IMG/VR virus record: IMGVR_UViG_2703718836_000007
Strand: one strand, 5' to 3'
DNA: 19,161 bases
Source of the DNA: a virus
Taxonomy: Duplodnaviria; Heunggongvirae; Uroviricota; Caudoviricetes
A program made the position numbers and the translations under genes. The notes beneath the pieces are model-generated. The model had not been told where the DNA came from. It made no database searches and was given only the letters and a program-made list of their open reading frames with translations. Of the stretch, positions 406-17,792 are shown one piece after another; the stretch's first letter is position 1; each line of letters opens with the position of its first letter.

Positions 406-616
406 CTAAAGTTGGATACTTAAGAAATGCTTCATAATTCAGTAAGGCATTAGCATAATGGAAATAAAAGTGCAGAGACTATCTCTATGGATGATTAATA
501 CTGTCTTTTTATTGTCACCCATAAATAATCACCAGACTAATACTATCAACTTGATATTTGAAATGTGATCACTTGACTTTTGATACGTTATTTTATAACG
601 GTTAACATATTTATAA

Positions 617-661
617 AAACAACGGCCGTGCCACACGTCCGTTTCAATACTTAACGCACAT
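617..661. repeat. Second copy of the icd-terminator-like hairpin plus about 20 bp of 3' flank
   Basis: aacaacggccgtgccacacgtccgtttcaatacttaacgcacatg closely matches 1485-1527 (aacaacgggcgtgttatacgcccgtttcaatatttaacacatg). GC hairpin followed by a T-rich run on the minus strand. Confidence 0.5.
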
Positions 662-1019
662 GTATTTTGGTTTAGTCATCATCCGGTTATATGTATTTTA
701 GCCAGGAACAGGTTAAATCATTCCTATATAACTCAAAAATTGAAACCTTATTCTCATGTCATGCTTATATTCATTATTATCGTTATATAAAAAGGCAACC
801 ATAATGTTTAGCAAATTGGCACAAAGTAGCATAAAGGCTATGTTTTAATTACAGGATGTTCAGTCATTTGAATGTATAACATTATAGCTAAACAAATCTA
901 AAACGAAGTCAATAATTTATTGCTTTCACAAAATCTCATTTTGTTTAACATCCATTGAGATTCCTTGCTTTAAATTTTATTTTATATAAGCCATCATTTT
1001 AATTAATTTATTTTTTTGA

Positions 1020-1028
1020 GGGGGGGGG
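1020..1028. repeat. G9 homopolymer tract about 80 bp upstream of the iraM start
   Basis: Uninterrupted run of 9 G inside otherwise very AT-rich intergenic DNA (tttttttgagggggggggtaatatact), next to -10-like tatact. Confidence 0.7.
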
Positions 1029-1105
1029 TAATATACTCATATGCAAAATCAAGAAATAAACATCCTAATGAACCATATTAAATACCGTGGGATAAGACAT
1101 AACAA

Positions 1106-1429
1106 ATGAAGTGGATAGTAATTGACACGGTAATTCAACCTACATGTGGTATATCTTTTTCAGCCATATGGGGTAATATGAAAATGATCATCTGGTATCA
1201 ATCTACTATATTTCTCCCTCCTGGCAGTATATTTACACCGGTTAAGTCTGGTATTATCCTTAAGGATAAAGAATATCCTATTACTATTTATCACATCGCA
1301 CCATTCAACAAGGATTTATGGAGTTTACTCAAAAGCAGTCAAGAGTGTCCTCCAGGAGAAAGCAAAATAACAAATAAATGTTTACATAATAGTTGCATTA
1401 TAAAAATATGCCCATATGGGCTCAAGTAA
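1106..1429 (+). CDS. iraM: Anti-adaptor protein IraM (RssB inhibitor, stabilises RpoS)
   Basis: 107-aa [15 protein letters not shown]...[11 protein letters not shown] matches my memory of IraM/YcgW in sequence and length. AT-rich, and adjacent to the icdC remnant in the expected orientation. Confidence 0.75.
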
Positions 1430-2396: not shown

Positions 2397-3518
2397 TTAG
2401 TCATCAACCGCGACTCCTGCACAATCATGGGCTATTGCCAGCAATTGTTTTTTAATTGCTTTAGCATCTACCGTCATATCTACTGTAGCAAAATGGATCT
2501 TATGTCCCTGAGTGACAACATACTCATTAAGCATATAGCCAACAGCTGGATGAAGTAGAAGACCAGCGGCATTGAGCGAAAGCGGATCCGTCTTGTTCTC
2601 CTGTGTTCTAAGGTAGGTATATAGCTGATAAATATAGCCATTACGTAGTGATTGCTCCCGATGCCAACCCTTTGTCAGAATCGAATTAAATTTGGTATCG
2701 ATAATAATACGCCGCTGGGCAGTCTTGTGTTCCAGAATAATGTCTGACTTCATTGTCGGGAAAATCTCTGCACTACCTGCACTTTGATCGCTCAACGCCC
2801 ATTTCAGCTCTTTCCCTGCAGAGACCTGCCAAGTTGTTTTGGCAAGGTGTACACGATATAAGCCAGCGATACCTTTTTCAAATAGTCTTCTCATCCAGTA
2901 AAGGTTATTTGAGGGCGCAGGTAAAAGATATTGGCCTTGATCTTCGGTCGGCATCAGCAGTTCAAAAGCTAATCGTGCGGCATCGACCATCGGTTTATCT
3001 GCGGCATCATGGCGTCCAAAACGCCACACTGAGGGTAATTCGCGGGGGGCAGGATATCCTCCATTTATCCCCTCACGGCGAAGTGATATTGCCATAAAAT
3101 GGCAATCTGCCGCCAAAGACGGTTTCACTATGATTGAGGCCAGACGTTCTAACGCACAGCGAACATAGCGATTTCGGGGGGTGTTGAGGGTTATGTCTTG
3201 AAAATGGCAGGCAACCTGTCCCCGTTCCAGCAGTTGATGACTGGCAGTATACAGTATGTCAATGCGCCCTCTCACCCGGTTCAGGGCCGCATGACAAGTT
3301 TGGTATCCCATATTTAAATTGCGACGTCGGCGCAGCGTAATCTCATGAAGGAGGATTGTCGCCACCAGGTCGGGGATTTCTGCTGGGTTATCTTCTACTG
3401 CGATCTGATTGCGCCCTAACTGGCGAAACAGATCTGAAGCGTACAGCATCAGCATCCAGATATTTCGCATGGGAATACGTGATGCTGTATGTTGCTCACT
3501 CCCGGTTATTGTCGTCAT
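2397..3518 (-). CDS. McrC-family nuclease subunit of a McrBC-type modification-dependent restriction system
   Basis: 373 aa. N-terminus IPMRNIWMLMLYA resembles E. coli McrC IPVRNIYYMLTYA. C-terminal PD-(D/E)xK-like core SDIIL...RRIIIDTKF...YIYQLYTYL...GLLLHPAVG. Its start overlaps the stop of the upstream McrB-like gene (translational coupling). Confidence 0.8.
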   Translation of the reverse strand: MTTITGSEQHTASRIPMRNIWMLMLYASDLFRQLGRNQIAVEDNPAEIPDLVATILLHEITLRRRRNLNMGYQTCHAALNRVRGRIDILYTASHQLLERGQVACHFQDITLNTPRNRYVRCALERLASIIVKPSLAADCHFMAISLRREGINGGYPAPRELPSVWRFGRHDAADKPMVDAARLAFELLMPTEDQGQYLLPAPSNNLYWMRRLFEKGIAGLYRVHLAKTTWQVSAGKELKWALSDQSAGSAEIFPTMKSDIILEHKTAQRRIIIDTKFNSILTKGWHREQSLRNGYIYQLYTYLRTQENKTDPLSLNAAGLLLHPAVGYMLNEYVVTQGHKIHFATVDMTVDAKAIKKQLLAIAHDCAGVAVDD

Positions 3519-5497
3519 TTTGCTAATAACACTTTTCTGGCTTCATCGACTTTATTTGGAGCATCGAACCAATATTCGGCGAGCAAAGGGCAGATCTCTG
3601 TATCAACGACTTGTTCATACCAAGCCTGGGCATCGTTGATTTTTTGGCCGATAGCTGGGGTGACATAGCTGTGACCGATACAAAACTGTGGTCCTAAGGT
3701 AACATCTTTTGCCAGCATATCGTTTAATACCGTCAGTCGAGATTTGATGAATGCTAACATGTCAAAATCAATTGCGTAATTATAATTTACCCAGTTTCTC
3801 CACGCGTCATTAAAAGCTGGCTTTAGATCGATAAACGCGAAACGACGGCGCAGCGCTAGGTCAAGTAGTGCGAGTGAGCGGTCTGCAATATTCATCGTAC
3901 CGATGATATATAGATTCTCAGGAATGTATATTTTTTCATCAGCATTTTTAGGATAGGAAAGAGATAATGCCTCAGTCGGCGTGCGTTTATCTGCTTCCAT
4001 CAACGTGAGTGTTTCACCGAAGATTTGCGCCGGATTGCCACGATTAATCTCTTCAATTATCACCACATATTTCGAGGTAGGATTATTGACTGCAGTTTTG
4101 ATTGCATTTACAAAAGGTCCATCAATTAGCGTCAATTGCCCTTCTTTACCTGGACGCCAGCCTCGAATAAAGTCTTCGTAAGAGAGGTTCGGGTGAAATT
4201 GCACCGCGCTAATACGCTCAGGTGCTTTTTCTCCCATCAAGCAGTACGCCAGACGTCGCGCTAACCAAGTTTTTCCAGTTCCGGGTGGTCCTTGTAATAT
4301 CAGGTTTTTCTTGTCGATCAGGCGCTGAAGTGTGAGTTGGATCTTAGCCTCTTCCAAGAAACAGCCATCCTGCACCAGATGACTGATGTCATAAGGAACG
4401 TGGGTGAGTTTTGGCAACAGCGCACTCTCTTCGACAGTTTCCTCAGTTATCGTCTGGGATTCGTTTTTCTCAAAATTCAGGTATTCATAATTTCCGGACT
4501 CGAGGGACTTTAACTCATCATCATTGCATAGTTTCTGTAGATAAAAGTAGATTGAGCTTGTAACAGTTTTGCTCTCAGGATGCTCTACCTTGAATACGTC
4601 CAAGTAGTTTTCTTCCAACTCCGAAGCAGTGAAATAAGGGCCATTTTTTTTCAGGCATAACGCCTTAATTTTATTCAGTAAAGAGGCTTTCCACGTTCTA
4701 TTTGCCACCTCATCTTTAGACTGGCTAAGATCTGTATTCCACGCTGATAAGGAAAGTTCTGGGAAAGAATGAACCGGATAGTTTGGTTGGGTAAAGACCT
4801 CGTTCAGCGCCCGCATAAGACTCAGGTAACTTTGTCCACTACAGCGACCTTTTGCCCCGTTTTTAATGATCTTAATGTTTAACACTGTCTGAATGTAATA
4901 CTGCGACTGGCTATCTAAAGTGGGGTAGAACCAAGGACGGGTCCAGTACAACCCCATGGTGAGATTCCAACCGACATTCATTACTGTAGAAGCGATGTCA
5001 TATGCGGCAGTGAAGTCTGCAGAGTTAGTATTCTGGTTATCCGCAAAGATCATTGCCTGTGAGAACATTTCCCACAAGCATTCAATGTCATTAGGGTCGC
5101 GTGACTTTTCATAACCAAAGAACCAAGATTTTTGGTTATTCAACAGAGGGATTCCGGCAAAGGAGTCAGGAATCGGTTCGTTCACGCCCAACAAATTCGC
5201 TAGCTTGGCAGCAATAATTTTGCGATTGCTGTCGGTCAAGTTACGATTGAACAAGCCCATAGTAGTAAACGGACAAATGTCTTTTAAGGGAAAGATCTCT
5301 CCCATAATAGATTTGTCCTGCAGATGGGACATTCCTTCCACACCCGAGGCAATTAGATGAATACCTTTGACTAATTCATCTCTACGATTTCGCCAAGTCA
5401 GTAACGCGTTGGCAAAAGCCTCATAAAAACTAGCCCAAGCAAACTTGCCATCATGTTCTGCTGTATCCACGGGAACTCCATTATACTTGTTGAGCAA
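3515..5497 (-). CDS. McrB-family AAA+ GTPase with a long (~390 aa) non-canonical N-terminal domain
   Basis: 660 aa. The C-terminal ~270 aa align with E. coli McrB: LILQGPPGTGKTWLARRLAYCLMGEKAP, VVIIEEINRGNPAQIFGETLTLME, YIPENLYIIGTMNIADRSLALLDLALRRRF, CIGHSY, PLLAEYWFD. The N-terminal 390 aa (W/Y-rich) do not resemble the ~160-aa McrB DNA-binding domain. Confidence 0.85.
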   Translation of the reverse strand: MLNKYNGVPVDTAEHDGKFAWASFYEAFANALLTWRNRRDELVKGIHLIASGVEGMSHLQDKSIMGEIFPLKDICPFTTMGLFNRNLTDSNRKIIAAKLANLLGVNEPIPDSFAGIPLLNNQKSWFFGYEKSRDPNDIECLWEMFSQAMIFADNQNTNSADFTAAYDIASTVMNVGWNLTMGLYWTRPWFYPTLDSQSQYYIQTVLNIKIIKNGAKGRCSGQSYLSLMRALNEVFTQPNYPVHSFPELSLSAWNTDLSQSKDEVANRTWKASLLNKIKALCLKKNGPYFTASELEENYLDVFKVEHPESKTVTSSIYFYLQKLCNDDELKSLESGNYEYLNFEKNESQTITEETVEESALLPKLTHVPYDISHLVQDGCFLEEAKIQLTLQRLIDKKNLILQGPPGTGKTWLARRLAYCLMGEKAPERISAVQFHPNLSYEDFIRGWRPGKEGQLTLIDGPFVNAIKTAVNNPTSKYVVIIEEINRGNPAQIFGETLTLMEADKRTPTEALSLSYPKNADEKIYIPENLYIIGTMNIADRSLALLDLALRRRFAFIDLKPAFNDAWRNWVNYNYAIDFDMLAFIKSRLTVLNDMLAKDVTLGPQFCIGHSYVTPAIGQKINDAQAWYEQVVDTEICPLLAEYWFDAPNKVDEARKVLLAK

Positions 5498-5830: not shown

Positions 5831-6415
5831 TTATTCCATAACAGGGATTGCAGGCCACTCAATATCAGGTGCAGTTGATGTATCAACACGATTCAGCAAC
5901 ACCCGATACTTCTTCCAGGCTTCAAGCAACGAGGTTTCTTCCTCCGTTGCGATTTCCAGATCTGCAGCATCCTGAAGCGGGGCAATATGCTCACTGGCTA
6001 CCTGCATCAGGCTGTTTTTTGTTTCTTCCGCCTCCCGGATCCGGAACAGTTTTTCTGCTTCCGTATCCTTCACCCAGGCTGTGCCGTTCCACTTCTGAAA
6101 CTCCCCTTCCGGGGATAACCAGGTGATATTTTCCGGTAGAGGTCCGAGTTCAGAAATAAATAACGAGTCGCCGGAAGCCACGTCATAGACGGTTTTTCCC
6201 CGATGATCTTCAACGAGATGCCACGATGCCTCATCACTGTTGAAAACAGCCACGAAGCCTACCGGAATATCTGGCGGTGCAATATAGGTACTGTTTGCTG
6301 GCAGACCTGTATGAGGCGGAATATATGCGTCACCTTCACCAATAAATTCATTAGTTCCGGCCAGCAGATTATAAATTTTTATGGTCCGTGGTTGTTCACT
6401 CATTCTGAATGCCAT
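5831..6415 (-). CDS. tfa: Tail fiber assembly protein Tfa (lambda Tfa-like)
   Basis: 194 aa, [31 protein letters not shown]...[11 protein letters not shown], near-identical to lambda Tfa as I recall it. Start overlaps the stf stop. Confidence 0.9.
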
Positions 6416-9267
6416 TATGCAAGCCTCACAATGTAGTTAAATGCGATGTTTTTGACGGTGTTTTCCGCGTTACCAGCAGCGTTAACGGTGATGGTGTGTC
6501 CATGTGAGCCAATCGCAACGGAGTGCGTATGAGCACCAATACCGACAGTATGTGCATGTGCGCCTGCGCTTGCAGCAGTGCCGGACAGCGAGTGGGTATG
6601 AGCACCATCTGATGATGTCTTCCCTGCATTACGAGTCTGGCCACTACCGCTTGTTGTGCTCATAATCCCCGCGCTTAGATTTGAAATCGCGGTATAACCA
6701 TTAGGGAAAATGCTCGTGTTCGTGCCACCAAATGCACCGGAACTCTTGTGTTGGTGCGCACCGGCACTATTTGCGGTCCCGCTAATACTATGGGTATGCG
6801 CCCCGGTGTTATTCGTGGATTTGGTTCCGTAATCAAACGACGATGTGGTTTTCGTCCCCAAATCCGTACTGGATGCGCTGGCGCTGTGGGTGTGCGATTT
6901 AATGCCGTCCTGTTCCTGAGACAATACGGCCCGACCACTGGCAGGTTTGCCCTTAATCGTCCAGCCACGCATATCAGGGATCACGCCTGACGGATAAGCG
7001 GCTGCAAGTTTCGGGTAAGCAGATTTGTCAAAAGTCTGCCCCTGCATCAGGGCATAACCAGACGGAACGGTATCTGATGGCCACGGGATTGGTGCGCCGA
7101 CTGGGTAGCTTTCTGGTGGAAGATTTTTCGAGGTATAAACTTCTGCCCAGCCTTCCTCAAAACCATAACCGTCTCTTGAAGAACGGTAGAACAGACCACC
7201 ATTTCTGTAATGCGCCTTCATCTGCAGGGTCCGGCAACTTCCGACTCCGGTATAGAAGTTAACCAGAATATAGCTGTCGCCAGAGCGGGTGACATTGTAA
7301 GCGCCTGATTCGGCATTCCAGGGAACGCCACCATCCGCATCGGCATATGTATCCGTTGCCCTTCTGGCAAAAGCAGCCACATGCGCGGCGGTTAAAGTAA
7401 TATCTTTGGAACCATCAAATGGAACACCGGATATTTTTCTTGCAGTCTGGAGTTTTGTAGCAGTTGCAGCATTACCAGTGGTGTTCTGATTACCCGTAGT
7501 GTTTACACCTGGAAGGTTAATATTTGCAGAACCGTCGAAAACAACTCCACCGATAGATCTTGCCGTCTGCAATTTCGTGGCTGTACTTGCATTACCATTC
7601 AATGAACCAGTTAATCCACCTGTAACAGACAACGGACCTGAAACTGTTCCTCCGGTTGTTGGCAGTGCTCCAATATCTGATGGTGTAGGTTTCTGATGTG
7701 AGCTATACATCGTATAAACAACACCATAGGTAACGCTGGAAGGCTTACTCGCTGAATATGTTGGCGAGGTATAAACAGAAACTGACGCATTTGCAGTACA
7801 ATCCCAATGGATATTTACACTCGTCGCATAATTGCCAATCTCAACGTAAATATCATATGTATCGCCGGATGTGTTGATCCAGGCGAAATTCGTTAATCCG
7901 ACGGCTGTACGCTTCCACAAAGCCCCGGTAATTCCTTTGGGGTTTCCATTGCCTGCTCGTAGAACCAGTTCTGAAATGCCTGCCTGATGTGGGGAACCGA
8001 CGTTGTAACCAGCGCCACCAATCAATGCGATGTAAACGATGGAACTCGCTTGTGGCATGGTAACCGTAGCCAGTTTGAACCACCCAGCCCCGCCAGAGAA
8101 AGACATCGTTACTGAATTTAAAGTACCAATATCTTTCGGCGTTAATGTTATATCCGCAGTCAGTGCTTTTCCGTTAACTTTTCGGTTAGATGGCACCCTG
8201 CTATTCGCATTGTCATTGGCTGCTTTAACTGCTTTTGGCGTTGCGGCCAGCGATTCACTGGTGCTATCAACAGCACTGCTAAGTTTCACAACACCTTTAG
8301 TTGTAAGGCTTGCGTCTTCCATCGCAACTGCACCGGCAATCTCTTCAGCACGATCAGCAGCAGCTTCCGCACGGGTCGCAGCGGATTCAGCAGTAGTTTT
8401 GCTCTGAGATGCCGCCGTCGCACTGCCAGCTGCCTCTGTCGCCTTCGTGGATGCTGTCGTGGCGCTGCCTTTCGCTGCTGATGCCTGTCTGCTCGCCTCA
8501 TCTTTTGAAGCAGACGCAGATGATGCCGATGACGCCGCCGAACTGGCGGACGATGCAGCTGCCATTTTTGAGGATTCTGCACTGGTTTCCGAGGCTTTCG
8601 CGTTCGTTTCGGATGTCTTCGCTGCGGATGCAGACCTCGCTGCTGCGCTGGCCTGTTCAGCGGCTTCGCCAGCCTTCGTTGTGGCTGTTGAAGCAGACGA
8701 TGCGGCGCTTTCTGCCGATTTTCCGGCGGCGGTGGCACTGGCTGAGGCCTGCCCGGCACTTGTTGACGCGGCACTGGCAGACGACGCAGCCGCTGTTTTT
8801 GAGCCTGCCGCAGCCGAGGCGCTCTGTCCCGCTGCCGTTTCAGAAGACCTGGCGTTTGTCTCAGACGTCTTTGCCGCCTTCGCGGAATTGCCTGCCGCCG
8901 TTGCCGAGGAAGCGGCACTACTGGCGCTTGATGATGCGTTCGTTTCTGATGATTTCGCTGCCTCTTTTGAGGCCGCCGCATCCCGGGCTGAGGTGGCTGC
9001 TTCTGACGCCTTCGTGGTCGCGGCGGATGCAGAAGTGGCTGCTGATTGTTGTGACGCTGCCGCATTCGTTTCTGACGTTTTCGCCGCACCGGCACTGGTA
9101 GCTGCCGCGCTTTTTGAGGACTCTGCAGCAGCAGCACTTTTTGCTGCTTCACGGGCCTTTGTCGATGCCGTTCCTGCGCTGGAAGACGCTGACTGAGCCG
9201 ACGACGCGGCCTGTCCGGCTGACGTGCTGGCGGCACGTGCTGAGCCTGCAGCATCGGTTATTACCAC
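6415..9267 (-). CDS. stf: Side tail fiber protein Stf (lambda/Rac-like), N-terminally truncated at a deletion junction; probably non-functional
   Basis: C-terminus [31 protein letters not shown] and the HxH-rich region match lambda Stf. Long Ala/Ser/Thr-rich reiterated segment (KTSETNA units). The ORF opens with GTG at the junction; the canonical Stf N-terminal ~140 aa are missing. Confidence 0.75.
8370..9265. repeat. Reiterated low-complexity coding repeats (Ala/Ser/Thr-rich, recurring KTSETNA units) inside stf
   Basis: Direct reading of the stf translation. This segment generates three long spurious shadow ORFs in other frames. Confidence 0.7.
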
Positions 9268-10117
9268 TTCCCGGATCGCTATACGCTATTCCGTTAAAGA
9301 TAATGGGCGGAATAATGATTTGACGGTCAAAGTTATGATCATCGCTGATGGTGACTGTAACCGTCCCGTTTGGTGTTTCCGTATTACCCCACGTACCAGC
9401 CTGTTTCGGGAATGATTTGGATACAGCTTTAACGAAGTCACCTCTGACCTGAGTCGCCTCCAGCATGCCCTTAATCGTACAGTTTTCATTTACCGTGACA
9501 TTGTTGAGCGTCCCGGCGTTCGCATTCACACTGCCACTGATATCCGCATTTTTAGCGGTCAGCTTTCCGTCCGGTGTCAGGGAAAATGCCGGTGGATTTC
9601 CACCGCTGGTAATGGTGGGGGCCGTCAGGCGTTTCAGGAACACGTCGTTCATGAATATCTGATCGCCCTGACCAACAAACATCGGTTTTGTGTTGCCATT
9701 CGCAGGATTAACCATCGCAATCCTGTCCGCCGCCAGCAGCACCTGACTCTGCATGCCGTCAGGGGTGTTCTCAATATCCACGATGGCCTCTTTTTCCGGT
9801 ACATGCTGCACGGCGGTGATGGCATACGTGCCGTCGTCGTTCTCACGGATACTCACGCAGCGGAACAGGCGCTGGCGCAACGTCGGCAGCTTCAGCCCCC
9901 ATACGCTGTATTCAGCAACGCCGTCAGGAACACGGCTCACTTTCACCTTCACGCCGTCGGTGACGGACTGAACCTCCACGCTGACCGGACTCCCCTGCCC
10001 GTCAACCAGGCTTATCAGCGTGGTGCCGGAAGATGGCAGCGTGATTTCACGGTCGAGCGTCAGCGTCCGGGTCTGGCTGTTTACCGCCAGCACGCGCCCG
10101 CCGGTGCGGATACCCAA
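9149..10117 (-). pseudogene. Fragment of the lambda J-like tail tip host specificity protein
   Basis: Translation [25 protein letters not shown]...[15 protein letters not shown]...[43 protein letters not shown]...DDHNFDRQI matches internal and C-terminal J segments. J is over 1100 aa and only about 270 aa are present. The frame then runs out of register across the stf 5' end. Confidence 0.8.
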
Positions 10118-10335
10118 GCTGGAGTGGCGAACGTTTTACCCTTGCTGATGAGGTATTCACTGATTTCGCTGTACCACATGTGGCTGAGTGCATTCTGGGA
10201 AAGACTGCGTCTCTCGCGCCACGGTTTAAGCACCATGCGAAAGCATTTGCCGTCCTCCAGATAAGGCTGGATCTGCCGACCGATAGCGGTGAAGTTACCG
10301 CGATGCAATTTGATACCATCTTGTGGGAGGTTCAC
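10081..10335 (-). pseudogene. NinB/YbcN-family protein, N-terminal fragment fused by deletion to the J fragment
   Basis: 84-aa ORF with RSLSQNALSHMWYSEIS, resembling the NinB RSLDQN motif and YbcN-like N-termini. Homology ends at about 10095, where J homology begins. Confidence 0.55.
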
Positions 10336-10529
10336 GCTTCACCTCCGCAGAGATCAAACGCTGGATGCAAAATATCGCAGGTGCATTTCTGCATCTGTGA
10401 ATGGAGAAGAGAGGTTGGATTGTATGTGCGCATAAACGTCCCCGTTTAGCGCAGAAGTCACCGGAGTTGTTCAGGCCCCAATGGCATGATTATGGCTGGT
10501 TGATTATTGGAAATCAAATGTGCTGAAAA

Positions 10530-11039
10530 TTAGTCTGCCAAGTCTTCCTCAGTCGCAACTGGGTAATTCCAAATATCAAAAAAAGCTATAGCCTCCTGCC
10601 ATTTGCTCCATAAGTTATCAAGTACTTGTGTAGGTTCCGTACTTTTAAAAACAGAATCAGCCGCATCACCGTTATGAACTTCCTCGTACAGTTCCATTAT
10701 TAGCAGATTAACAAAGTACTGTTTCAACATTAATGCCTGATTACCTTCTTTCTGCTGGCTATCCTGCTTGATGATCTCCATCGCCCGTACTAGGCACCTG
10801 ATGATATCCGCTGCATCATTAACGCTCCATTCAGATCCGCGCTTATCTTTAGCTGATGAATTGGCTCTCTCAGCGCAAGCCTTTAAAGACTCATAAAGGT
10901 AAACTCTATTTTGTAGCTGCAGCGCTTTTTTTGACGTGTACCAACTTGCAAGCGCCGACCCCGCTGCGGCTAATGTGCCAAACGCAGAAATACCTGCTGC
11001 TATTGCACTTAAGTCGGCACTGTCAAAGTTCCACATCAT
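10530..11039 (-). CDS. Uncharacterised protein with a single predicted N-terminal transmembrane anchor
   Basis: 169 aa. Hydrophobic segment LSAIAAGISAFGTLAAAGSALASWY at residues ~10-34, followed by an acidic soluble domain. SD-like aaggtg upstream and an AT-rich promoter-like region at 11040-11297. No homolog recognised. Confidence 0.55.
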   Translation of the reverse strand: MMWNFDSADLSAIAAGISAFGTLAAAGSALASWYTSKKALQLQNRVYLYESLKACAERANSSAKDKRGSEWSVNDAADIIRCLVRAMEIIKQDSQQKEGNQALMLKQYFVNLLIMELYEEVHNGDAADSVFKSTEPTQVLDNLWSKWQEAIAFFDIWNYPVATEEDLAD

Positions 11040-11297
11040 CGTTACACCTTATATAAATACCCCTCAGTAATATCCAATAAGGTATGTGCACAATCAATAT
11101 AATTTTATCCGTATCGGCACATAGCGATTTGAACGCTACTGGTAATGGTATATTTTAGATTATATCGTCCAGTTTACAGCACCCGTATTTTATGAAATGG
11201 ACTCGCATATTACCCAAAAAATGCCAGCACTTCCGTCATCGTAGAATGCTGGCAGTATTTCTAACTAGTGACTTTATTGGAACAGATTCTGACGGAA

Positions 11298-11597
11298 TTA
11301 TGGTAACACTCGACTCCACTTATCATCCAGCCACGGCTGGAATTTTACATGTGCCGTTTCTCTGGCGAGGATTGCTCGCGCTCTGTTGAGTATCTGGGGA
11401 TATTCTTGCTCGATAGAAGTAAAGCGGCCGGCTTCGCGGTGCTCCGCAACCTGAAGTAGTGGAGTAACGTTCTGGCAGGCAGTTAACATCACATCACCTG
11501 CTCGCCATAACCAAGCACGTGCACAAAGTTTGTTATCAGTGAATTGTTTTGTGATTGGGTATTGTTGAACTGCTAGAACGAGAACGCCAGCATCCAT
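11298..11597 (-). CDS. Hypothetical protein, 99 aa
   Basis: ORF with a moderate RBS. Sits where DLP12-type prophages carry ybcL/ybcM. No recognisable motif; could be a gene fragment. Confidence 0.35.
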   Translation of the reverse strand: MDAGVLVLAVQQYPITKQFTDNKLCARAWLWRAGDVMLTACQNVTPLLQVAEHREAGRFTSIEQEYPQILNRARAILARETAHVKFQPWLDDKWSRVLP

Positions 11598-11708: not shown

Positions 11709-13235
11709 TCAAAAATAAACCTCACCATCAACCATATATTTGAGAGTACTTATCGCCTGCTGGGCGGATATTGTTTTCATTAAAGGATAGTGTTTAAAAA
11801 CAATGCCATTCATAAAATAGATATCACAGGTTTTATTATCTGTATTGATTATGATTTTTTCGAATGTTTTATAGGCAAGTGTACGACATAGCTCTCGCCC
11901 ATTTTTACTGGTTAAGTCAATAGCATGAAAATCACCAAGTGAACTCACCGCTTTACTCTTCAAAGTTTTTAATGATACAGAAGCCCTTCGTAATTCCTTA
12001 TCTAATACTCTGATTTTTTCTGCTATAGCGGTAACTTCAGGCGCAACAGATAATGCAGCAATTAAATTATTAATTTTCATCTGGAGCTCAATAATTTTCA
12101 ACTCTAAAGTTTCATTAGCATCTTTCTTGTTTTCAACTGGTTGGATTTTACTACAATTAAAAAGCAACTCATTAATGATATTATAATCAACCAAATCTCT
12201 CTTTATTGATGGCCTGTCACATCGATGCAGTCTTCTCATCGGACAAACATAATAGCCATGCAAACTTCCAGATACCGCATGAACAATCATGGTATTACCA
12301 CAAGCCTCGCACTTCATAACTGTTCGAAGTAGATTTATCAACATAGGATTTTTGCTACTATTGCTAATACCAAAAGGTGCCAACCGAATTTCCTGCACAG
12401 CGTAAAACAAATCATCTGATATGACTCTGGGATAATAGCCAGCGATTTCACTTATTCCTTTACCTCTTGCACGATATGAAGGTACGCATATACCTATCAG
12501 AGCTTTATTCGCTAATAATTTTTCAATTACAGAAGGTCCCCATGCACTTTCTTTTCCTGAGAAATTCTTTACAGCATGATCATTTAAATACTTGGCTATT
12601 GCATTCAATGAGCGCCTTTCCATCCTGAGTTTAAAAATTAGCTCAATAGTTTTCACCCTGTCGGGGTCTGGAACAAAAGCCGTTCTTTTGTCATCCAATG
12701 AGAGCCATCTCGGACAAGACGCCGTCATAATCGTGCCTGACTCCAGTGCATCCTGCCGTTTTTTCTTCCATGATAATTTAACCCGACTTGACTTTATCTC
12801 GCTTTCTTCATTTGCCCTTTGTGCTATAAGTATGGCTTTTATTAATGAATATGGCTCATTCAATGAGTCAATATTATAGACTGTATTATCGCAAAGAGTT
12901 ATAACATCAATACCGTGATTCAAAATCAATTTCAGACGCTCAATCGCCTCACCGACTTTTTCTCTTGAAAGTCTGTCCAGACTTTCAACTAACAATGTAG
13001 TCCCTGGCAATATATAACCATGTTCTATAGCATCTAAAAATTCCGAAAAAGCTCCTGATTGTGCATGCTTTCCATTGAATGCGCTTAACCCCAAATCTTC
13101 ATACGTTACGGTATCAAGGTAATAATCACTATTTACCTTTAGCCATTCAGTAATAAGCCTTCTCTGGCGGTTTAATGAATCACCAGACATCTGACTTGGT
13201 GATGAAAATCGCATATATGCTATGGCTTTTTTCAT
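11709..13235 (-). CDS. ybcK: Large serine recombinase (YbcK-like, resolvase/invertase N-terminal catalytic domain)
   Basis: 508 aa. N-terminal AIAYMRFSSPSQ serine-recombinase catalytic motif. Low GC. Downstream of emrE, as in the DLP12 emrE-ybcK arrangement I recall. Confidence 0.75.
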   Translation of the reverse strand: MKKAIAYMRFSSPSQMSGDSLNRQRRLITEWLKVNSDYYLDTVTYEDLGLSAFNGKHAQSGAFSEFLDAIEHGYILPGTTLLVESLDRLSREKVGEAIERLKLILNHGIDVITLCDNTVYNIDSLNEPYSLIKAILIAQRANEESEIKSSRVKLSWKKKRQDALESGTIMTASCPRWLSLDDKRTAFVPDPDRVKTIELIFKLRMERRSLNAIAKYLNDHAVKNFSGKESAWGPSVIEKLLANKALIGICVPSYRARGKGISEIAGYYPRVISDDLFYAVQEIRLAPFGISNSSKNPMLINLLRTVMKCEACGNTMIVHAVSGSLHGYYVCPMRRLHRCDRPSIKRDLVDYNIINELLFNCSKIQPVENKKDANETLELKIIELQMKINNLIAALSVAPEVTAIAEKIRVLDKELRRASVSLKTLKSKAVSSLGDFHAIDLTSKNGRELCRTLAYKTFEKIIINTDNKTCDIYFMNGIVFKHYPLMKTISAQQAISTLKYMVDGEVYF

Positions 13236-13427
13236 GGTGACACCTGCTAAAGTATGCTTTTATAAACCTTAGTGGTGAGATATGATTTTTGTTTAATTTT
13301 TATTTAAAAAGACAATTAAGGTCACATTATCTTGAATATACAACAATAATCGTATTGCAATTTTCTTACACCATAATCTTGAAAGCACAAAAGAATGAAT
13401 AAAAACTAAAGACATTAACAAAAAGCA

Positions 13428-13462
13428 TAAAACGAGGCCCATATAAATATACGAGCCTCCAT
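13428..13462 (-). terminator. Candidate rho-independent terminator downstream of emrE
   Basis: Imperfect hairpin (gaggc...atat / atat...gcctc) followed by a U-rich tract on the minus strand. Confidence 0.3.
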
Positions 13463-13490
13463 ATTTTAGTCGTTTAAAAACAAATTATTT

Positions 13491-13823
13491 TTAATGTGGT
13501 GTGCTTCGTGACAATAAATTAATAACCAACACACCGGCACAAATCAACATCATGCCTATAATGGCTGGCAGGTCCAACCGTTGGCCGAAAAATCCCCATG
13601 ATAGTAAGCTAATCAGGACAATACCGACTCCTGACCAGATAGCATAAGCAATCCCTGTAGGAATATAAGCCAGCGTCTGAGCTAATAACCAGAATGATGC
13701 ACAATAACAAATAATTGTACCAACAGATGGCCATAACCGTGTAAAACCTTCTGAAAACTTCATTAAGGTTGTACCAATGACCTCTGCAAGTATTGCACCA
13801 CCAAGATAAATATAAGGATTCAT
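13491..13823 (-). CDS. emrE: Small multidrug resistance (SMR) efflux transporter EmrE
   Basis: MNPYIYLGGAILAEVIGTTLMKFSEGFTRLWPSVGTIICYCASFWLLAQTLAYIPTGIAYAIWSGVGIVLISLLSWGFFGQRLDLPAIIGMMLICAGVLVINLLSRSTPH, 110 aa from the internal Met, which has an aggaaag RBS. The longer ORF-track start is an artefact. Confidence 0.9.
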   Translation of the reverse strand: MNPYIYLGGAILAEVIGTTLMKFSEGFTRLWPSVGTIICYCASFWLLAQTLAYIPTGIAYAIWSGVGIVLISLLSWGFFGQRLDLPAIIGMMLICAGVLVINLLSRSTPH

Positions 13824-13890
13824 AGCATATTCTTTCCTGTTCAAACTGGAGAGAATTGTACTACAGTTTGAACTCAACTCACCTGTTTCA

Positions 13891-14193: not shown

Positions 14194-14891
14194 ACCCTTG
14201 CTCCTTTCAGCCCAAACTTAGCTTTGATTTCTGCGATCTTCGCCAGAGCCTGTGCACGATTTAGAGGTCTACCGCCCATGACAGGAAGTTGTTTTACTGG
14301 TTCAGGTATAGCCTCACCACGGTTAATTCGTGCGGTCATACAGGACAGTTCATCGGCAGCCTTGCGCCGTAATTCCGCGTCAGTCAACGCATTGGCCCGC
14401 ATGTTCTGATACAGGTTGGTAACCAGCCAGTAGTGCGCGTTTGATTTCCACGGATAAGACTCTGCATCCGGATACAGCCCGCGCTTCCGGCAATACTCGT
14501 AAACCATATCAACCAGCTCGCTGGCGTTTGGCAGCCCGGCGGTAACGGATGCTTCTTCCCGGCACCAGGCGACAAACTGCCCGGGTGATGGCAGGAATGG
14601 TCGATTCTGCCGACGGGCTACGCGCATTCCAGCGTTAACCTGTTCCATTGTGGTGATCCCGTTTTCCCGAAAAGCCAGCACCCACTGGCGGCGGATTTCG
14701 TTCAGTTCATTCTGGTCACGGTTAGCCAGGCTCGCCGGGAAAGTTGCCAGTAACTGGCTGAACACACCGTTGATGATCTGCGCTACCTGCTGTACCTGTG
14801 GCTTTTCGTCGTACTGTTCCGGCATGTTGTTGGCGATCCGACGCATCTGCTCACGGTCAAAGTTAACCATCTGTGCGGCGATGTTTTTCAT
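14190..14891 (-). CDS. P: Replication protein P (DnaB helicase loader), full length
   Basis: 233 aa, MKNIAAQMVNFDREQMRRIANNMPEQYDEKPQVQQVAQIINGVFSQLLATFPASLANRDQNE..., near-identical to lambda P. Confidence 0.9.
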   Translation of the reverse strand: MKNIAAQMVNFDREQMRRIANNMPEQYDEKPQVQQVAQIINGVFSQLLATFPASLANRDQNELNEIRRQWVLAFRENGITTMEQVNAGMRVARRQNRPFLPSPGQFVAWCREEASVTAGLPNASELVDMVYEYCRKRGLYPDAESYPWKSNAHYWLVTNLYQNMRANALTDAELRRKAADELSCMTARINRGEAIPEPVKQLPVMGGRPLNRAQALAKIAEIKAKFGLKGARV

Positions 14892-15120
14892 AGATCCACC
14901 CCGTAAATCCAGTCAGTGTTTGTCAGGTCGAGTTTTGGTTTGCCGACTGTCACGCCAGCCTGTTGCTTGTTCCGGTTGATTTCGAGCTGGGTCCACTTGT
15001 CGCGGAGTTTGGCCGGACTCAGCACGTTACCGGACCAGAAGTTGTCCTGGCAGGCCCAGCGGAACAGTACACACATGTCGCGGTGGTTACGTCCATCACG
15101 TTCACGCATCAGACGGATAT
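14888..15120 (-). pseudogene. Replication initiator O, C-terminal fragment only (N-terminal origin-binding domain and ori deleted)
   Basis: Translation ends ...[15 protein letters not shown], overlapping the P start as in lambda. The upstream part of the ORF-track ORF is just antisense of exo. The upper boundary is approximate. Confidence 0.6.
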
Positions 15121-15121
15121 C

Positions 15122-15778
15122 GTTACCGGGATCGACGTGAGAGCTGTCGAACAGGGGGATGATGCGTGGCACAAATTACGGCTCGGCGTCATCACCGCTT
15201 CAGAAGTTCACAACGTGATAGCAAAGCCCCGCTCAGGAAAGAAGTGGCCTGACATGAAAATGTCCTACTTCCACACCCTGCTTGCCGAGGTTTGCACCGG
15301 TGTGGCTCCGGAAGTTAACGCTAAAGCACTGGCCTGGGGAAAACAGTACGAGAACGACGCCAGAACCCTGTTTGAGTTCACTTCCGGCGTAAATGTTATT
15401 GAATCCCCGATCATCTATCGCGACGAAAGTATGCGCACCGCCTGCTCTCCCGATGGTTTATGCAGTGACGGCAATGGCCTTGAACTGAAATGCCCGTTTA
15501 CCTCCCGGGATTTCATGAAGTTCCGGCTCGGTGGTTTCGAGGCCATAAAGTCGGCTTACATGGCCCAGGTGCAGTACAGCATGTGGGTGACGCGAAAAGA
15601 TGCCTGGTACTTTGCCAACTATGACCCGCGTATGAAGCGTGAAGGCCTGCATTATGTCGTGGTTGAGCGGGATGAAAAGTACATGGCGAATTTTGACGAG
15701 ATGGTGCCGGAGTTCATCGAAAAAATGGACGAGGCACTGGCTGAAATTGGTTTTGTATTTGGGGAGCAATGGCGATGA
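15122..15778 (+). pseudogene. exo: Lambda exonuclease (Red alpha / Exo), 5'-truncated at a deletion junction with no native start codon
   Basis: [85 protein letters not shown]...[15 protein letters not shown] matches lambda Exo from residue ~10 to the end. The first ~9 codons are replaced by antisense O/P sequence. Confidence 0.8.
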
Positions 15779-15929
15779 CGCATCCTCACGATAATATCCG
15801 GGTAGGCGCGATCACTTTCGTCTACTCCATTACAAAGCGAGGCTGGGTATTTCCCGGCCTTTCTGTTATCAGAAATCCACTGAAAGCACAGCGGCTGGCT
15901 GAGAAGATAAATAACAAACAGGAGGATAT

Positions 15930-16994
15930 ATGAGTCAGGTTGGTAATCATTCATTCGAATTTCCGGCATCGCAAGGTGTACAGGGTGGTACTGTTACACT
16001 CTTCCTTACCATACCAGGAAGATCGCTGGCTCGTTTCCTCGCTTCAGATAATTACGGCCATACACTGGAACGCTCTCAGCGAGAAATTAATCCAAATCGA
16101 GTACGAAAATTTTTAAATTATCTCACTAACGCAGACTCAAGAAATGAGCCTTTTATCATTCCCCCTCTCGTAGGTAACTGTGATTCGAATATAGAATTTG
16201 TACCGTTTGGCAACACAAATGTTGGTATAGCCAGAATTCCCCTCGACGCCGAAATAAAACTTTTTGATGGTCAACATCGTGCAGCTGGCATTGAGATATT
16301 TTGCCGAAGTTCCCCATCAACGCTCATGGTTCCCATGATGCTTACAATGAATCTGCCGCTAAAAACCCGGCAGCAGTTCTTTTCGGACATAAATAACAAC
16401 GTTTCTAAGCCATCAGCGACCATCAATATGGCGTATAACGGCCGGGATGATATTGCTCAGGGAATGATATCCTTCCTGACCCAACATACTGTATTTGCCG
16501 ATATAACCGATTTTGAACACAACGTAGTGCCATTAAAAAGTAATATGTGGGTGAGTTTCAAGGCACTCACTGATGCAACGTCAAAGTTCGCTAGGAACGG
16601 CAATCAACAACTTGAAATGGGATATATAGAATCTGTCTGGGAGGCATGGATTACACTAACTCAGATTGACTCAATCCGACATGGTGTACACCACGCTACG
16701 TACAAGCGCGATTATATTCAGTTCCATGGAGTAATGATTAACGCTTTCGGTTTTGCGGTTCAACAGATGATGGTTAATCATTCCATCGCAGAAATAACTT
16801 CTATGATCGAAAAACTATGTGCAACTACCAGCTCTGCAGAAAGAGAGGATTTTTTTCTGATGGATAACTGGGCGGGGATCTGCACGAAAGCCAGCCAGGA
16901 AAAACTATCTGTTATTGCCAATGTGGCAGCGCAGAAAGCAGCAGCAAACAGACTGATACAAGCTTTTACCAAAGGAAGTCTGGAAACAACTTAA
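15930..16994 (+). CDS. DGQHR-domain protein (DndB-like, ParB/Srx-fold), orphan
   Basis: 354 aa carrying the diagnostic motif in IKLFDGQHRAAGIEIF. Strong SD (caggagg) 7 nt before the ATG. AT-rich relative to the neighbouring lambda genes. No dndCDE, dpd or ssp partner genes in the window. Confidence 0.75.
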   Translation: MSQVGNHSFEFPASQGVQGGTVTLFLTIPGRSLARFLASDNYGHTLERSQREINPNRVRKFLNYLTNADSRNEPFIIPPLVGNCDSNIEFVPFGNTNVGIARIPLDAEIKLFDGQHRAAGIEIFCRSSPSTLMVPMMLTMNLPLKTRQQFFSDINNNVSKPSATINMAYNGRDDIAQGMISFLTQHTVFADITDFEHNVVPLKSNMWVSFKALTDATSKFARNGNQQLEMGYIESVWEAWITLTQIDSIRHGVHHATYKRDYIQFHGVMINAFGFAVQQMMVNHSIAEITSMIEKLCATTSSAEREDFFLMDNWAGICTKASQEKLSVIANVAAQKAAANRLIQAFTKGSLETT

Positions 16995-17071
16995 TGAATC
17001 AACATTGTCTCATATCAGCATGCTGTACGGCGTCTTTAAGGAACGGTGAGCATGAAAAACAAAATCATCAT

Positions 17072-17092
17072 GGAGCTACAGGCTCCTTTTTT
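17072..17092 (+). terminator. Rho-independent terminator downstream of the DGQHR gene
   Basis: ggagc-tacag-gctcc hairpin followed by tttttt. Confidence 0.5.
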
Positions 17093-17147
17093 ATTATTCG
17101 CATTCACCCTCAAGCGTATTAACCAACAATTCAGGGATTAATGAAAG

Positions 17148-17366
17148 ATGGCAGACATCATTGATTCAGCATCAGAAATTGAAGAATTACAGCGCAACAC
17201 AGCAATAAAAATGCGCCGCCTGAACCACCAGGCTATATCTGCCACTCATTGTTGTGAGTGTGGCGATCCGATAGATGAACGAAGACGCCTGGCCGTTCAG
17301 GGTTGTCGGACTTGTGCAAGTTGCCAGGAGGAGATCGAACTTAAGAACAAACAATGGGGACTGTGA
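17148..17366 (+). CDS. TraR/DksA-family C4 zinc finger protein (lambda exo-xis region orf73-like)
   Basis: 72 aa with CCECGDPIDERRRLAVQGCRTCASCQEE, a CxxC...CxxC arrangement like TraR (CEACGNPIPEARRK...CVECQ). Confidence 0.75.
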   Translation: MADIIDSASEIEELQRNTAIKMRRLNHQAISATHCCECGDPIDERRRLAVQGCRTCASCQEEIELKNKQWGL

Positions 17367-17413
17367 TGGCTTCAAAGCAGCAAATTTCAACATCGTCCAA
17401 CTGAGGTGTAAAA

Positions 17414-17653
17414 ATGTTCAGAATCATTTTTCCTAACACCTGGTACGTCGACCACCACGGCACTCCCTGCAAAATCCTGCGTTCTACCCACAACAAAGTT
17501 CACTACATCCGAAAAGGCAGAACATGTATCGCCAGCATGTTCCGCTTTAATCATGACTTTGAACCTGTGAATAAAGCTGATGCAGATCGGATAGCAGAAG
17601 AGATCGAAACGGCAGAACACATTAAGAAGTTACGTGCCATACGCAGGAAATAG
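17414..17653 (+). CDS. Small phage protein of the exo-xis region, function unknown
   Basis: 79-aa ORF with SD gaggtg upstream, between the TraR-like gene and xis. Confidence 0.45.
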   Translation: MFRIIFPNTWYVDHHGTPCKILRSTHNKVHYIRKGRTCIASMFRFNHDFEPVNKADADRIAEEIETAEHIKKLRAIRRK

Positions 17654-17792
17654 AAAAATTGATAAATTCAATACTGCATTACTCAGCATTAAATTTATCT
17701 CTATGACCAGTCAAGAGATGTACCTGCCATGAGCTTAATATCATGTCAGATATATCGGTCACAAACTCCCTCAGCAGCTAAGAGGAGGACAA

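What the first reader, a model, noticed from the sequence alone, without database searches (positions are those of the whole stretch)
15930..17092. Orphan DGQHR (DndB-like) gene as a self-contained unit in the exo-xis variable region
A 354-aa protein with the DGQHR motif sits between a truncated exo and a TraR-like gene, with its own strong SD and its own terminator, and lower GC than the lambda backbone. DGQHR proteins are normally read as components of phosphorothioate (Dnd) or 7-deazaguanine (Dpd) modification clusters, but none of those partners is here. A standalone copy in a phage early-region variable slot suggests an independent role, either prophage-encoded defence or anti-defence against host modification-based immunity.
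Basis: partly seen in the sequence, partly recalled or inferred. Interest (0 to 1): 0.7.

Follow-up and report, generated by a model that had tools for sequence, protein, structure and literature searches.

The report
Mobile-element DndB-like NTPase, no Dnd partners
The gene is real and encodes a DndB-like, ParB-fold protein from a clade found on phages and conjugative plasmids, not in phosphorothioation clusters; it sits in the genes expressed first on DNA entry and often just upstream of DNA methyltransferases, so it more likely helps mobile DNA establish or escape restriction than defends the host.

Summary
The 354-aa ORF (15930-16994, +) is real. It is a full-length DGQHR/DndB-family protein with a ParB/Srx-fold N-domain, but only 23% identical to E. 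coli DndB. It fails the DndB and DpdB equivalog models.

The window is an E. coli cryptic lambdoid prophage at icd whose immunity region and pL are deleted.

The gene is not self-contained. It is a precise cargo swap in the slot after orf60a (DUF1317), and its ATG overlaps the orf60a stop (ATGA). The "own" terminator is backbone sequence shared by phages that lack the gene.

In 141 related loci (1.9 Mb) there is no DndD/E/F/G/H and only one DndC-like gene. Close relatives lie in leftward early operons of temperate phages. Relatives at about 42% identity occur on 1,062 plasmids (880 conjugative). In the IncL/M (pOXA-48-family) example examined, the gene sits in the leading region beside an antirestriction gene and ssb.

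In 11 of 39 dereplicated lineages a co-directional DNA methyltransferase, from five families, lies one to three genes downstream.

Best reading (confidence 0.4): an entry-phase, NTP-gated DNA-handling accessory tied to self-modification and anti-restriction. No experiment exists, and this copy may be silent.

The parts
15119..15778 (+). lambda exo, lacking about 9 N-terminal codons and fused head-to-head to a truncated replication gene O (deletion of the immunity region and pL)
   Evidence: RefSeq annotation of the near-identical NCTC9100 locus. blastn homology to phage exo starts at window 15124, which corresponds to codon 10.
15769..15933 (+). orf60a / DUF1317 gene; its TGA overlaps the DGQHR ATG (ATGA)
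   Evidence: Pfam DUF1317 E 4.4e-31; sequence.
15918..15923 (+). AGGAGG Shine-Dalgarno, 6 nt before the ATG, inside the 3' end of orf60a. Other cargo genes in this slot have a purine-rich stretch at the same position.
15930..16994 (+). DGQHR/DndB-family gene, 354 aa (RefSeq WP_000084449.1). N-terminal ParB/Srx-fold NTPase-like domain and a helical C-terminal domain.
15934..17013 (+). Cargo segment absent from lambdoid phages 4A7, PhiR30_1 and SfI: the ORF plus 19 nt. It replaces orf63 and most of orf61.
   Evidence: blastn junctions and junction alignments
17052..17141 (+). Conserved backbone 29-codon ORF (MKNKIIMELQAPFLLFAFTLKRINQQFRD) that contains the hairpin
17072..17092 (+). Terminator-like hairpin (6-bp stem, 3-nt loop) followed by T6. 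This is backbone sequence shared with phages lacking the gene.
17148..17366 (+). TraR/DksA C4 zinc-finger gene of the exo-xis backbone
   Evidence: Pfam zf-dskA_traR; annotation

Best explanation
The gene encodes a mobile-element clade of the DndB/DpdB (DGQHR) family, a ParB-fold NTPase with a helical C-terminal domain.

Proposed mechanism (inferred). The protein is made in the first transcription wave after the element's DNA enters or is induced: the pL delayed-early operon in lambdoid phages, and T-strand-oriented leading-region genes in conjugative plasmids. There it binds NTP, dimerises and engages DNA, as proposed for DpdB and ParB. In that way it assists, gates or substitutes for DNA-modifying enzymes that protect the element from restriction. 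The enzymes concerned are orphan methyltransferases and, rarely, a DndC-like enzyme.

In this window the gene stands alone. It is one of several interchangeable DNA-modification-type cargoes in the slot after orf60a. The prophage has lost pL, so this copy may be poorly expressed or silent.

Shown: family and fold, independence from Dnd, cassette anatomy, genomic contexts, and the methyltransferase linkage.

Inferred: NTPase activity, DNA loading, and the anti-restriction outcome.
For: Family and fold:
- DGQHR and DndB models are passed.
- The motifs RSQRE, FDGQHR and RQQFFSDINNN are invariant or nearly invariant in 33 homologues.

Not a Dnd component:
- Identity to E. coli DndB is 23%. The DndB equivalog scores 106.9 against a cutoff of 328.
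- No DndD/E/F/G/H occurs in 141 loci.

Entry-phase position:
- The same allele in strain KOr019 sits downstream of cI, kil, gam', bet, exo and orf60a.
- Serratia, Tatumella, Salmonella SPN1S and Klebsiella phage homologues sit between the recombination genes and xis/int.
- 1,062 plasmids carry a homologue, 880 of them conjugative.
- In IncL/M the homologue lies in the array RadC, HTH, DGQHR, DUF4942, Hha, antirestriction, ssb, all pointing towards mobC/oriT. This is the orientation typical of leading-region anti-defence genes (PMC7736820, PMC11541004).
- PsiA, ArdB/KlcA-type antirestriction and RadC are neighbours in other elements.

Link to DNA modification:
- 11 of 39 dereplicated lineages have a co-directional methyltransferase at +1 to +3. 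The families are MT-A70, D12, PF05869 (strong and weak matches) and C5. N6_N4 plus C5 arrays also occur.
- Of 25 nearby methyltransferase genes, 7 are at +1, 3 at +2 and none at -1 or -2 (binomial P about 2e-5).
- Vibrio phage Va_PF430-3_p42 has DGQHR followed directly by a C5 methyltransferase.
- An IncHI2 plasmid has DGQHR followed by a DndC-like gene.
- The same lambdoid slot holds a Dam-type methyltransferase in PhiR30_1.

Precedents:
- DpdB is a DNA-stimulated ATPase required for DpdA to modify DNA (PMC10164549).
- ParB-fold/methyltransferase fusions are enriched in prophages, and a DndB-like protein binds ATP and GTP (bioRxiv 10.1101/2025.10.10.680097).
Against: - No experiment exists on any member of this clade.
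- The E. coli allele cluster (32 loci) never has an adjacent methyltransferase.
- About 70% of lineages have none within three genes. The linkage could therefore reflect co-location of early accessory genes rather than a physical partnership.
- Methyltransferases normally need no ATPase helper.
- The C-terminal domain has no recognisable DNA-binding or partner-binding fold.
- Some plasmid copies sit next to partition genes rather than in a clear leading region.
- The copy in the widespread 63.6-kb pOXA-48 plasmid is split by IS1, so the gene is dispensable there.
- In this window no promoter-like site precedes the gene and pL is deleted.
Confidence: 0.4

Rival explanations
1. It is an entry-phase DNA-binding regulator. 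Like DndB (a repressor) or the F-plasmid ParB-like protein HerB/YfjB, it would bind specific host or element sites and reprogram transcription to ease establishment or bias the lysis-lysogeny decision, without involvement in DNA modification.
For: - DndB is a sequence-specific repressor (PMC4507180).
- HerB is a zygotically induced ParB-like CTPase that binds chromosomal sites and alleviates the cost of plasmid acquisition (PMC13370423).
- In Buttiauxella and Dryocola elements the gene lies directly upstream of psiA. From my own recollection of the F plasmid map, which I did not check with these tools, yfjB/herB sits in the same ssb-psiB-psiA neighbourhood.
- Other exo-xis genes modulate lysogenisation and induction (PMC6213356, PMC3824215).
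Against: - No HTH is detected by Pfam.
- No TACGN10CGTA operator occurs near the gene; the window has 3 one-mismatch matches against 4.5 expected.
- DndB Cys29 is replaced by Ile.
- The gene occurs on very different elements and hosts, which argues against one shared specific operator.
- This reading does not explain the one-sided methyltransferase adjacency.
Confidence: 0.2
2. It is a defence or exclusion factor. Either it is a prophage- or plasmid-borne ParB/Srx-fold NTPase that acts against competing phages or plasmids, as Osa does, or it is a modification sensor like SspE, DndI or GmrSD.
For: - The gene stays intact in 282 of 284 E. coli genomes that carry it, including this decayed prophage, which also retains an McrBC-like pair.
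- PADLOC recognises it as DndB.
Against: - No nuclease domain is detected.
- The clade motif DFEHNVVP resembles EHxxP, but the His is Asn in two close homologues and K/R/N/Q across the family.
- The gene lies inside the repressor-controlled early operon and has no promoter-like site.
- The plasmid copies examined lie among anti-defence genes in the transfer-early orientation.
- No known single-gene defence model matches it.
Confidence: 0.12
3. It is a specific counter-measure against Dnd, Ssp or Dpd immunity. As a DndB/DpdB mimic it would repress or mis-regulate the host modification genes, or titrate their partner proteins.
For: - It has full-length homology to DndB over 292 residues.
- It is expressed early.
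- Phages are known to antagonise DndFGH by other means (JSS1_004, cited in PMC11662687 and PMC13645617).
Against: - Identity to DndB is only 23%, and there is no DpdB model hit.
- No DndB operator is present, and Cys29 is not conserved.
- Its hosts (E. coli, Klebsiella and Enterobacter plasmids) mostly lack Dnd. Only 568 of 31,478 genomes carry dndBCD (PMC11662687).
- Shutting off host modification would not protect an incoming unmodified phage.
Confidence: 0.08

Closest known systems
DndB (dndBCDE phosphorothioation clusters; TIGR03233)
   Same: Same length and full-length architecture, and the same Pfam family. It shares the RxQR, DGQHR and QQxFxDxN motifs. Like dndB, it sits directly upstream of DNA-modifying enzyme genes in many elements.
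   Different: Identity is 23% and the equivalog cutoff is not reached. The clade motifs differ: LFDGQHRA/RSQRE here against INDGQHRR/RAQR in DndB. There is no dndCDE linkage, no operator, and Cys29 is absent. It is carried by phages and plasmids.
DpdB (Dpd 7-deazaguanine system; NF041060)
   Same: It is a ParB-fold NTPase with a helical C-terminal domain lacking a nuclease motif. DpdB is a homodimeric, DNA-stimulated ATPase needed by a separate DNA-modifying enzyme with which it forms no stable complex (PMC10164549). This is the closest functional model for an accessory to a modification enzyme.
   Different: The window protein gives no hit to the DpdB model. No dpdA or dpdC is nearby. The likely partners, where present, are methyltransferases.
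ParB-fold/DNA-methyltransferase fusion proteins of prophages and plasmids
   Same: They combine a ParB-fold NTP-binding module with a DNA methyltransferase on mobile elements, and an anti-defence role has been suggested for them (bioRxiv 10.1101/2025.10.10.680097).
   Different: Here the two functions are separate genes and often not even adjacent. The ParB-fold module is of the DGQHR/DndB type, not the canonical ParB N-domain.
[quoted passage not shown]
   Same: It is a ParB-fold NTP switch encoded among leading-region genes and made immediately after DNA entry (PMC13370423).
   Different: HerB is 652 aa, a canonical CTP-binding ParB with an HTH and a novel dimerisation domain. I did not test it for sequence relationship to the window protein. 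Its role is host transcriptional reprogramming.
SspE / DndI / GmrSD-BrxU (DUF262 plus HNH/DUF1524)
   Different: Those proteins carry a C-terminal nuclease domain and act as restriction effectors. The window protein has no conserved nuclease motif.

Membership tests
DGQHR domain family (TIGR03187) / Pfam DndB PF14072 | Score above the curated cutoff of the domain models | tested here: met
   TIGR03187 scores 188.8 bits against 58.85. PF14072 scores 158.2 bits against 29.1.
DGQHR domain family | DGQHR motif and the flanking NTP-binding-type motifs are conserved | tested here: met
   FDGQHR 112-117, RSQRE 48-52 and RQQFFSDINNN 147-157 are invariant or nearly invariant in 33 homologues.
ParB/Srx fold superfamily | N-terminal domain adopts the ParB/sulfiredoxin fold | tested here: met
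DndB sensu stricto (TIGR03233 equivalog) | Equivalog model score above cutoff | tested here: not met
   106.9 bits against a cutoff of 328. Bona fide E. coli DndB scores 462.
DndB sensu stricto | Encoded with dndC, dndD and dndE (with or without dptFGH) | tested here: not met
   tblastn with E. coli DndC/D/E and DptF/G/H against the window and 140 related loci gives no hit except one DndC-like gene in an IncHI2 plasmid.
DndB sensu stricto | Autoregulatory operator TACGN10CGTA near the gene, and Cys29 needed for DNA binding (PMC4507180) | tested here: not met
   The window has 3 one-mismatch matches against 4.5 expected, none near the gene. The Cys29 position is Ile.
DpdB (NF041060 equivalog) | Model hit and linkage to dpdA/dpdC | tested here: not met
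   No DpdB hit at E<=1 for the window protein. No dpd genes are annotated in the window.
GmrSD / SspE / DndI type restriction NTPase-nucleases | C-terminal DUF1524/HNH nuclease with a conserved (D/E)HxxP catalytic motif | tested here: not met
   No DUF1524 or HNH Pfam hit. The His of DFEHNVVP is not conserved in the clade or in the wider family.
Canonical ParB / HerB-type CTP switches | ParB N-domain with GxxRxxA box II, plus an HTH DNA-binding domain | tested here: inconclusive
   The fold is shared, but no ParBc or HTH_ParB Pfam hit was found. Nucleotide specificity and clamp formation cannot be tested with these tools.
Leading-region / early-operon anti-defence genes (operational class) | Located in the first-expressed region of the element, co-oriented with known anti-defence genes | tested here: met
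   Phage early-left operons. IncL/M leading region with an antirestriction gene and ssb, all oriented towards oriT. PsiA, ArdB-type and RadC neighbours.
Leading-region / early-operon anti-defence genes (operational class) | Demonstrated inhibition or evasion of a defence system | not testable with these tools
   This needs plating-efficiency and conjugation assays. No publication was found.

The most novel reading that the evidence does not exclude
The DGQHR clade may be a previously unrecognised, widespread class of establishment factor on phages and conjugative plasmids, including pOXA-48-family IncL/M plasmids. In this reading it is a DndB/DpdB-type NTP-gated DNA clamp that makes whichever DNA-modifying enzyme is available act fast enough on incoming or replicating element DNA to outrun host restriction. 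The enzyme could be any of five or more orphan methyltransferase families, a DndC-like enzyme, or possibly a host enzyme. That would make it a generic 'modification accelerator', and DndB and DpdB would be domesticated versions of it.
Probability: 0.25. Interest if true: 0.8.

Novelty: new variant of a known kind. Interest (0 to 1): 0.55.

Why it matters
DndB-family proteins are treated as parts of Dnd or Dpd restriction-modification systems. This analysis shows a large sister clade that never travels with those systems. It rides on temperate and virulent phages and on more than a thousand sequenced plasmids, mostly conjugative and including the IncL/M pOXA-48 family. In the cases examined it sits where anti-defence and establishment genes sit.

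If the clade boosts or gates protective DNA modification, it would explain why ParB-fold modules keep appearing next to, or fused to, methyltransferases on mobile elements. It would give DpdB and DndB a common mechanistic ancestor. It would also add a target for limiting phage escape or plasmid spread.

The hypothesis is directly testable with existing phages (SPN1S, lambda knock-ins) and plasmids (IncL/M with an intact or an IS1-split copy).

Tried and rejected
1. A nuclease idea. The clade motif DFEHNVVP, in a predicted strand-loop-strand-helix stretch, resembles the EHxxP nicking motif of SspE. I rejected this because the His is Asn in two close homologues and K/R/N/Q/T across 134 family representatives, and the spacing differs.
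2. A DndB-like autoregulator. No operator-like palindrome occurs near the gene, and no significant repeats occur in 15000-17700.
3. PDB sequence searches with the single protein and with a 33-sequence profile found no relative. Foldseek against the PDB gave nothing significant. The afdb50 library was not available.
4. The Tgt/DpdA identity of the phage SfI slot occupant could not be confirmed. It has no Pfam or NCBIfam hit, so I use it only as an annotation.
5. DUF4942, which lies downstream in IncL/M plasmids, might be a methyltransferase. I found no literature on it and no clear catalytic motif, so this is left open.
6. A cross-tabulation of the gene against dnd clusters over all 5,426 E. 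coli genomes was not possible, because at most 60 rows are listed per search.
7. Supplementary tables of the leading-region study list only a 7-member family annotated DGQHR.
8. Literature searches for DGQHR, DndB-like, DndB+prophage, DndB+leading region and pOXA-48+DndB found no study of this clade.
Full report
**1. What is in the window**

The window matches E. coli NCTC9100 (NZ_LR134239.1) over its whole length, with two bases of length difference. It spans ycgX-iraM, a duplicated icd fragment, and a roughly 17-kb lambdoid prophage remnant integrated at icd.

On the minus strand the remnant carries:
- an McrC gene plus an AAA-ATPase gene
- tail-fibre remnants
- ybcK, emrE, ren and P
- a truncated O gene

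On the plus strand it carries exo, orf60a (DUF1317), the DGQHR gene, a TraR/DksA zinc-finger gene, DUF4222, xis and int.

Truncated O and exo meet head-to-head. exo lacks about 9 codons. The region from cII, cro and cI through N, gam and bet, which includes pL, is therefore deleted.

**2. The observation**

The ORF at 15930-16994 (354 aa) is a real gene:
- Pfam DndB E 3.8e-46
- TIGR03187 DGQHR 188.8 bits
- PADLOC DndB 126 bits
- PHROG 7901 (unknown function) 717 bits

It is present at 99% identity or more in 284 of 5,426 complete E. coli genomes, and covers at least 80% of the query in 282 of them.

The AGGAGG Shine-Dalgarno and the hairpin plus U6 at 17072-17092 exist.

First, orf60a lies between exo and the gene, and its TGA overlaps the ATG as ATGA.

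Second, comparison with lambdoid phages lacking the gene puts the cargo boundaries at about 15933 and 17013. The phages compared are 4A7, PhiR30_1 and SfI. The cargo is the ORF plus 19 nt.

Third, the hairpin lies in backbone sequence that is nearly identical in all of these phages, inside a conserved 29-codon ORF. It is not the gene's own terminator. No promoter-like site precedes the gene.

GC is 42.9%. That is lower than exo (52.4%) but about equal to the downstream backbone (44.0%).

**3. A swap slot**

At the same two junctions, other phages carry different cargo:
- 4A7 carries orf63 plus orf61.
- PhiR30_1 carries a PF05869 Dam-type N6-adenine methyltransferase plus orf61.
- SfI carries a 250-aa gene annotated as queuine tRNA-ribosyltransferase. 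I could not verify this annotation, because the protein has no Pfam or NCBIfam hit.

In strain KOr019 the same DGQHR allele sits in a different lambdoid prophage at argU, with a different integrase and an intact immunity region. The order there is cI, kil, gam', bet, exo, orf60a, DGQHR, TraR, int. The natural setting is therefore the pL delayed-early operon. According to the exo-xis literature, the exo-xis genes of that operon are among the first transcribed on infection (PMC10869804, PMC4195576).

**4. What the protein is**

It aligns with bona fide E. coli DndB over 292 residues at 23% identity, with the same overall length and shared motifs. It nevertheless fails the DndB equivalog (106.9 against 328 bits) and gives no DpdB hit.

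No solved DndB-family structure was found by sequence search or by Foldseek.

A full scan of 1.84 billion representative proteins gives 822 clusters at E<=1e-3. Those with the motifs LFDGQHR/RSQR/RQQ(F/A)F form a group distinct from the INDGQHRR/RAQR DndB-type sequences.

**5. Where relatives live**

I gathered five sets of related loci:
- 41 genome loci
- 80 IMG/VR viral loci
- annotated phage records
- contigs found from the protein collection
- plasmid records

tblastn with E. coli DndC, DndD, DndE and DptF/G/H against all 141 loci (1.9 Mb) found one hit only. It is a 669-aa DndC-like PAPS-reductase-family gene, two genes downstream of the DGQHR gene on IncHI2 plasmid p680_1. The clade is therefore independent of Dnd.

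Close relatives (55-74% identity; Salmonella, Klebsiella, Serratia, Tatumella, Enterobacter and others) always lie in the leftward early operon of temperate phages. They sit between recombination genes and xis/int. The recombination genes include exo, RecT, RdgC, an Rv2179c-like exonuclease and DUF2303.

Relatives at 36-43% identity occur on 1,062 PLSDB plasmids, of which 880 are conjugative. In the IncL/M plasmid examined the array is RadC(JAB), HTH, DGQHR, DUF4942, Hha, DUF1380, antirestriction, ssb, then mobC/oriT/mobA-traI. All of these genes point towards oriT. That is the orientation described for leading-region genes transcribed from the entering strand (PMC7736820, PMC11541004).

In other elements the neighbours are PsiA, ArdB-type antirestriction, RadC and DUF1281.

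Not every plasmid copy fits this picture. Two of the examined copies sit near parAB/korB.

**6. Link to DNA methyltransferases**

After dereplicating the DGQHR proteins at 90% identity, 39 lineages remain. Eleven of them have a co-directional DNA methyltransferase one to three genes downstream, often with overlapping stop and start codons.

Five labelled families occur: MT-A70, D12, PF05869, a weak PF05869 match, and C5. Arrays of N6_N4 plus C5 also occur. Within one DGQHR lineage the methyltransferase type changes while the DGQHR gene stays. A small 154-aa HTH/Cys-rich protein, or a 179-aa HTH-repeat protein, often lies between the two genes.

Of 25 methyltransferase genes near lineage representatives, 7 are at +1, 3 at +2 and 1 at +3. 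None is at -1 or -2, and the rest lie 9-17 genes upstream in the nin-type region. The binomial P is about 2e-5. Shared ancestry among lineages weakens this figure.

Vibrio phage Va_PF430-3_p42 adds a further case of DGQHR followed directly by a C5 methyltransferase.

The E. coli allele cluster, which includes the window copy, never has an adjacent methyltransferase.

**7. How it most likely works**

Known relatives supply the mechanistic frame:
- DpdB is a homodimeric, DNA-stimulated ATPase without which DpdA cannot insert preQ0 into DNA. Its model shows a closable tunnel wide enough for duplex DNA (PMC10164549).
- DndB binds DNA and limits phosphorothioation (PMC4507180).
- A DndB-like protein binds ATP and GTP, and ParB-fold/methyltransferase fusions are enriched in prophages (bioRxiv 10.1101/2025.10.10.680097).
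- HerB/YfjB shows that a ParB-fold switch in a leading region can act at entry (PMC13370423).

Combining these with the contexts above, the best-supported reading is an NTP-gated DNA-handling accessory. It would be made in the first wave after entry or induction, and would support protective DNA modification or otherwise shield the element. I put this at confidence 0.4. The enzymatic steps are inferred, not shown.

The rival readings are:
- a HerB- or DndB-like regulator (0.2)
- a defence or exclusion factor (0.12)
- a specific anti-Dnd/Dpd mimic (0.08)

Because pL is deleted here and no promoter-like site precedes the gene, this particular copy may be silent, although its ORF is intact.

**8. 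Novelty and verdict**

RefSeq names the protein only as "DGQHR domain-containing protein", and its PHROG family has no assigned function. I found no paper on this clade. The leading-region survey lists only a 7-member family annotated DGQHR.

It is a new variant of a known kind: a mobile-element, Dnd-independent branch of the DndB/DpdB family. Interest 0.55.

Noticed in passing
window 14888-15172: A truncated replication gene O (minus strand) and an N-terminally truncated exo (plus strand) are joined head-to-head. The whole immunity and early-regulatory region, including pL, pR, N, gam and bet, is deleted from this prophage.
   Followed up: partly
window 2397-5497 (-): RefSeq annotates an McrC gene plus an AAA-ATPase gene (McrBC-like, modification-dependent restriction) at the far end of the same prophage remnant, next to the duplicated icd fragment (about 1532-1699). 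PADLOC gives no McrBC-model match, only weak REase_II and other ATPase-type hits for the ATPase and nothing for McrC.
   Followed up: partly
window 5874-6072 (-): Rfam IS009 (RF02111) matches at 214 bits inside the tail-fibre-assembly gene region.
   Followed up: no
L056 (NZ_CP068885.1, 63,589-bp IncL/M pOXA-48-type plasmid) 2989-5048: The plasmid homologue of the DGQHR gene is split by an IS1B insertion in many near-identical plasmids of about 63.5 kb from Klebsiella, Enterobacter and E. coli. Other IncL/M plasmids keep it intact at 427 aa.
   Followed up: partly
L060 (NZ_CP038659.1, IncHI2 p680_1) 7983-11505: A DGQHR gene is followed, after a 90-aa ORF, by a 669-aa PAPS-reductase-family protein that is 30% identical to E. 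coli DndC over 307 aa. There is no DndD or DndE, so this may be a minimal Dnd-like pair on a plasmid.
   Followed up: partly
L106 9065-9529; L103 9046-9585 (IMG/VR prophage contigs): A small protein sits between DGQHR and the methyltransferase in many phages. It is either a 154-aa HTH/Cys-rich protein with no Pfam hit or a 179-aa HTH-repeat protein. The latter has weak, sub-threshold similarity to sigma-70 region 4 and to GcrA. It may be a third module component.
   Followed up: partly
L008 (phage SfI) 2731-3483: The occupant of the same lambdoid slot is annotated as queuine tRNA-ribosyltransferase but has no Pfam or NCBIfam hit. It may be a divergent DpdA-like enzyme or a mis-annotation.
   Followed up: partly
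L052 (E. coli NADC 6564 dnd island) 8108-9268 (-): A second DGQHR gene lies between dndE and dptH. It is TIGR04172-like at 339 bits (below the 450 cutoff) and is annotated as two ORFs, so it may be disrupted.
   Followed up: no
window 11709-13877 (-): ybcK (serine recombinase) and emrE are modules typical of the DLP12 prophage at argU, but here they sit in an icd-integrated element. This indicates mosaicism between cryptic lambdoid prophages.
   Followed up: no
window 8250-10250: This stretch is 58-63% GC within tail-fibre remnants and carries several long overlapping ORFs on both strands. RefSeq annotates a hypothetical protein antisense to the tail genes.
   Followed up: no
window 405-1106: The window is two bases longer than the NCTC9100 record in the intergenic region between ycgX and iraM, so the match is not strictly identical.
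   Followed up: no
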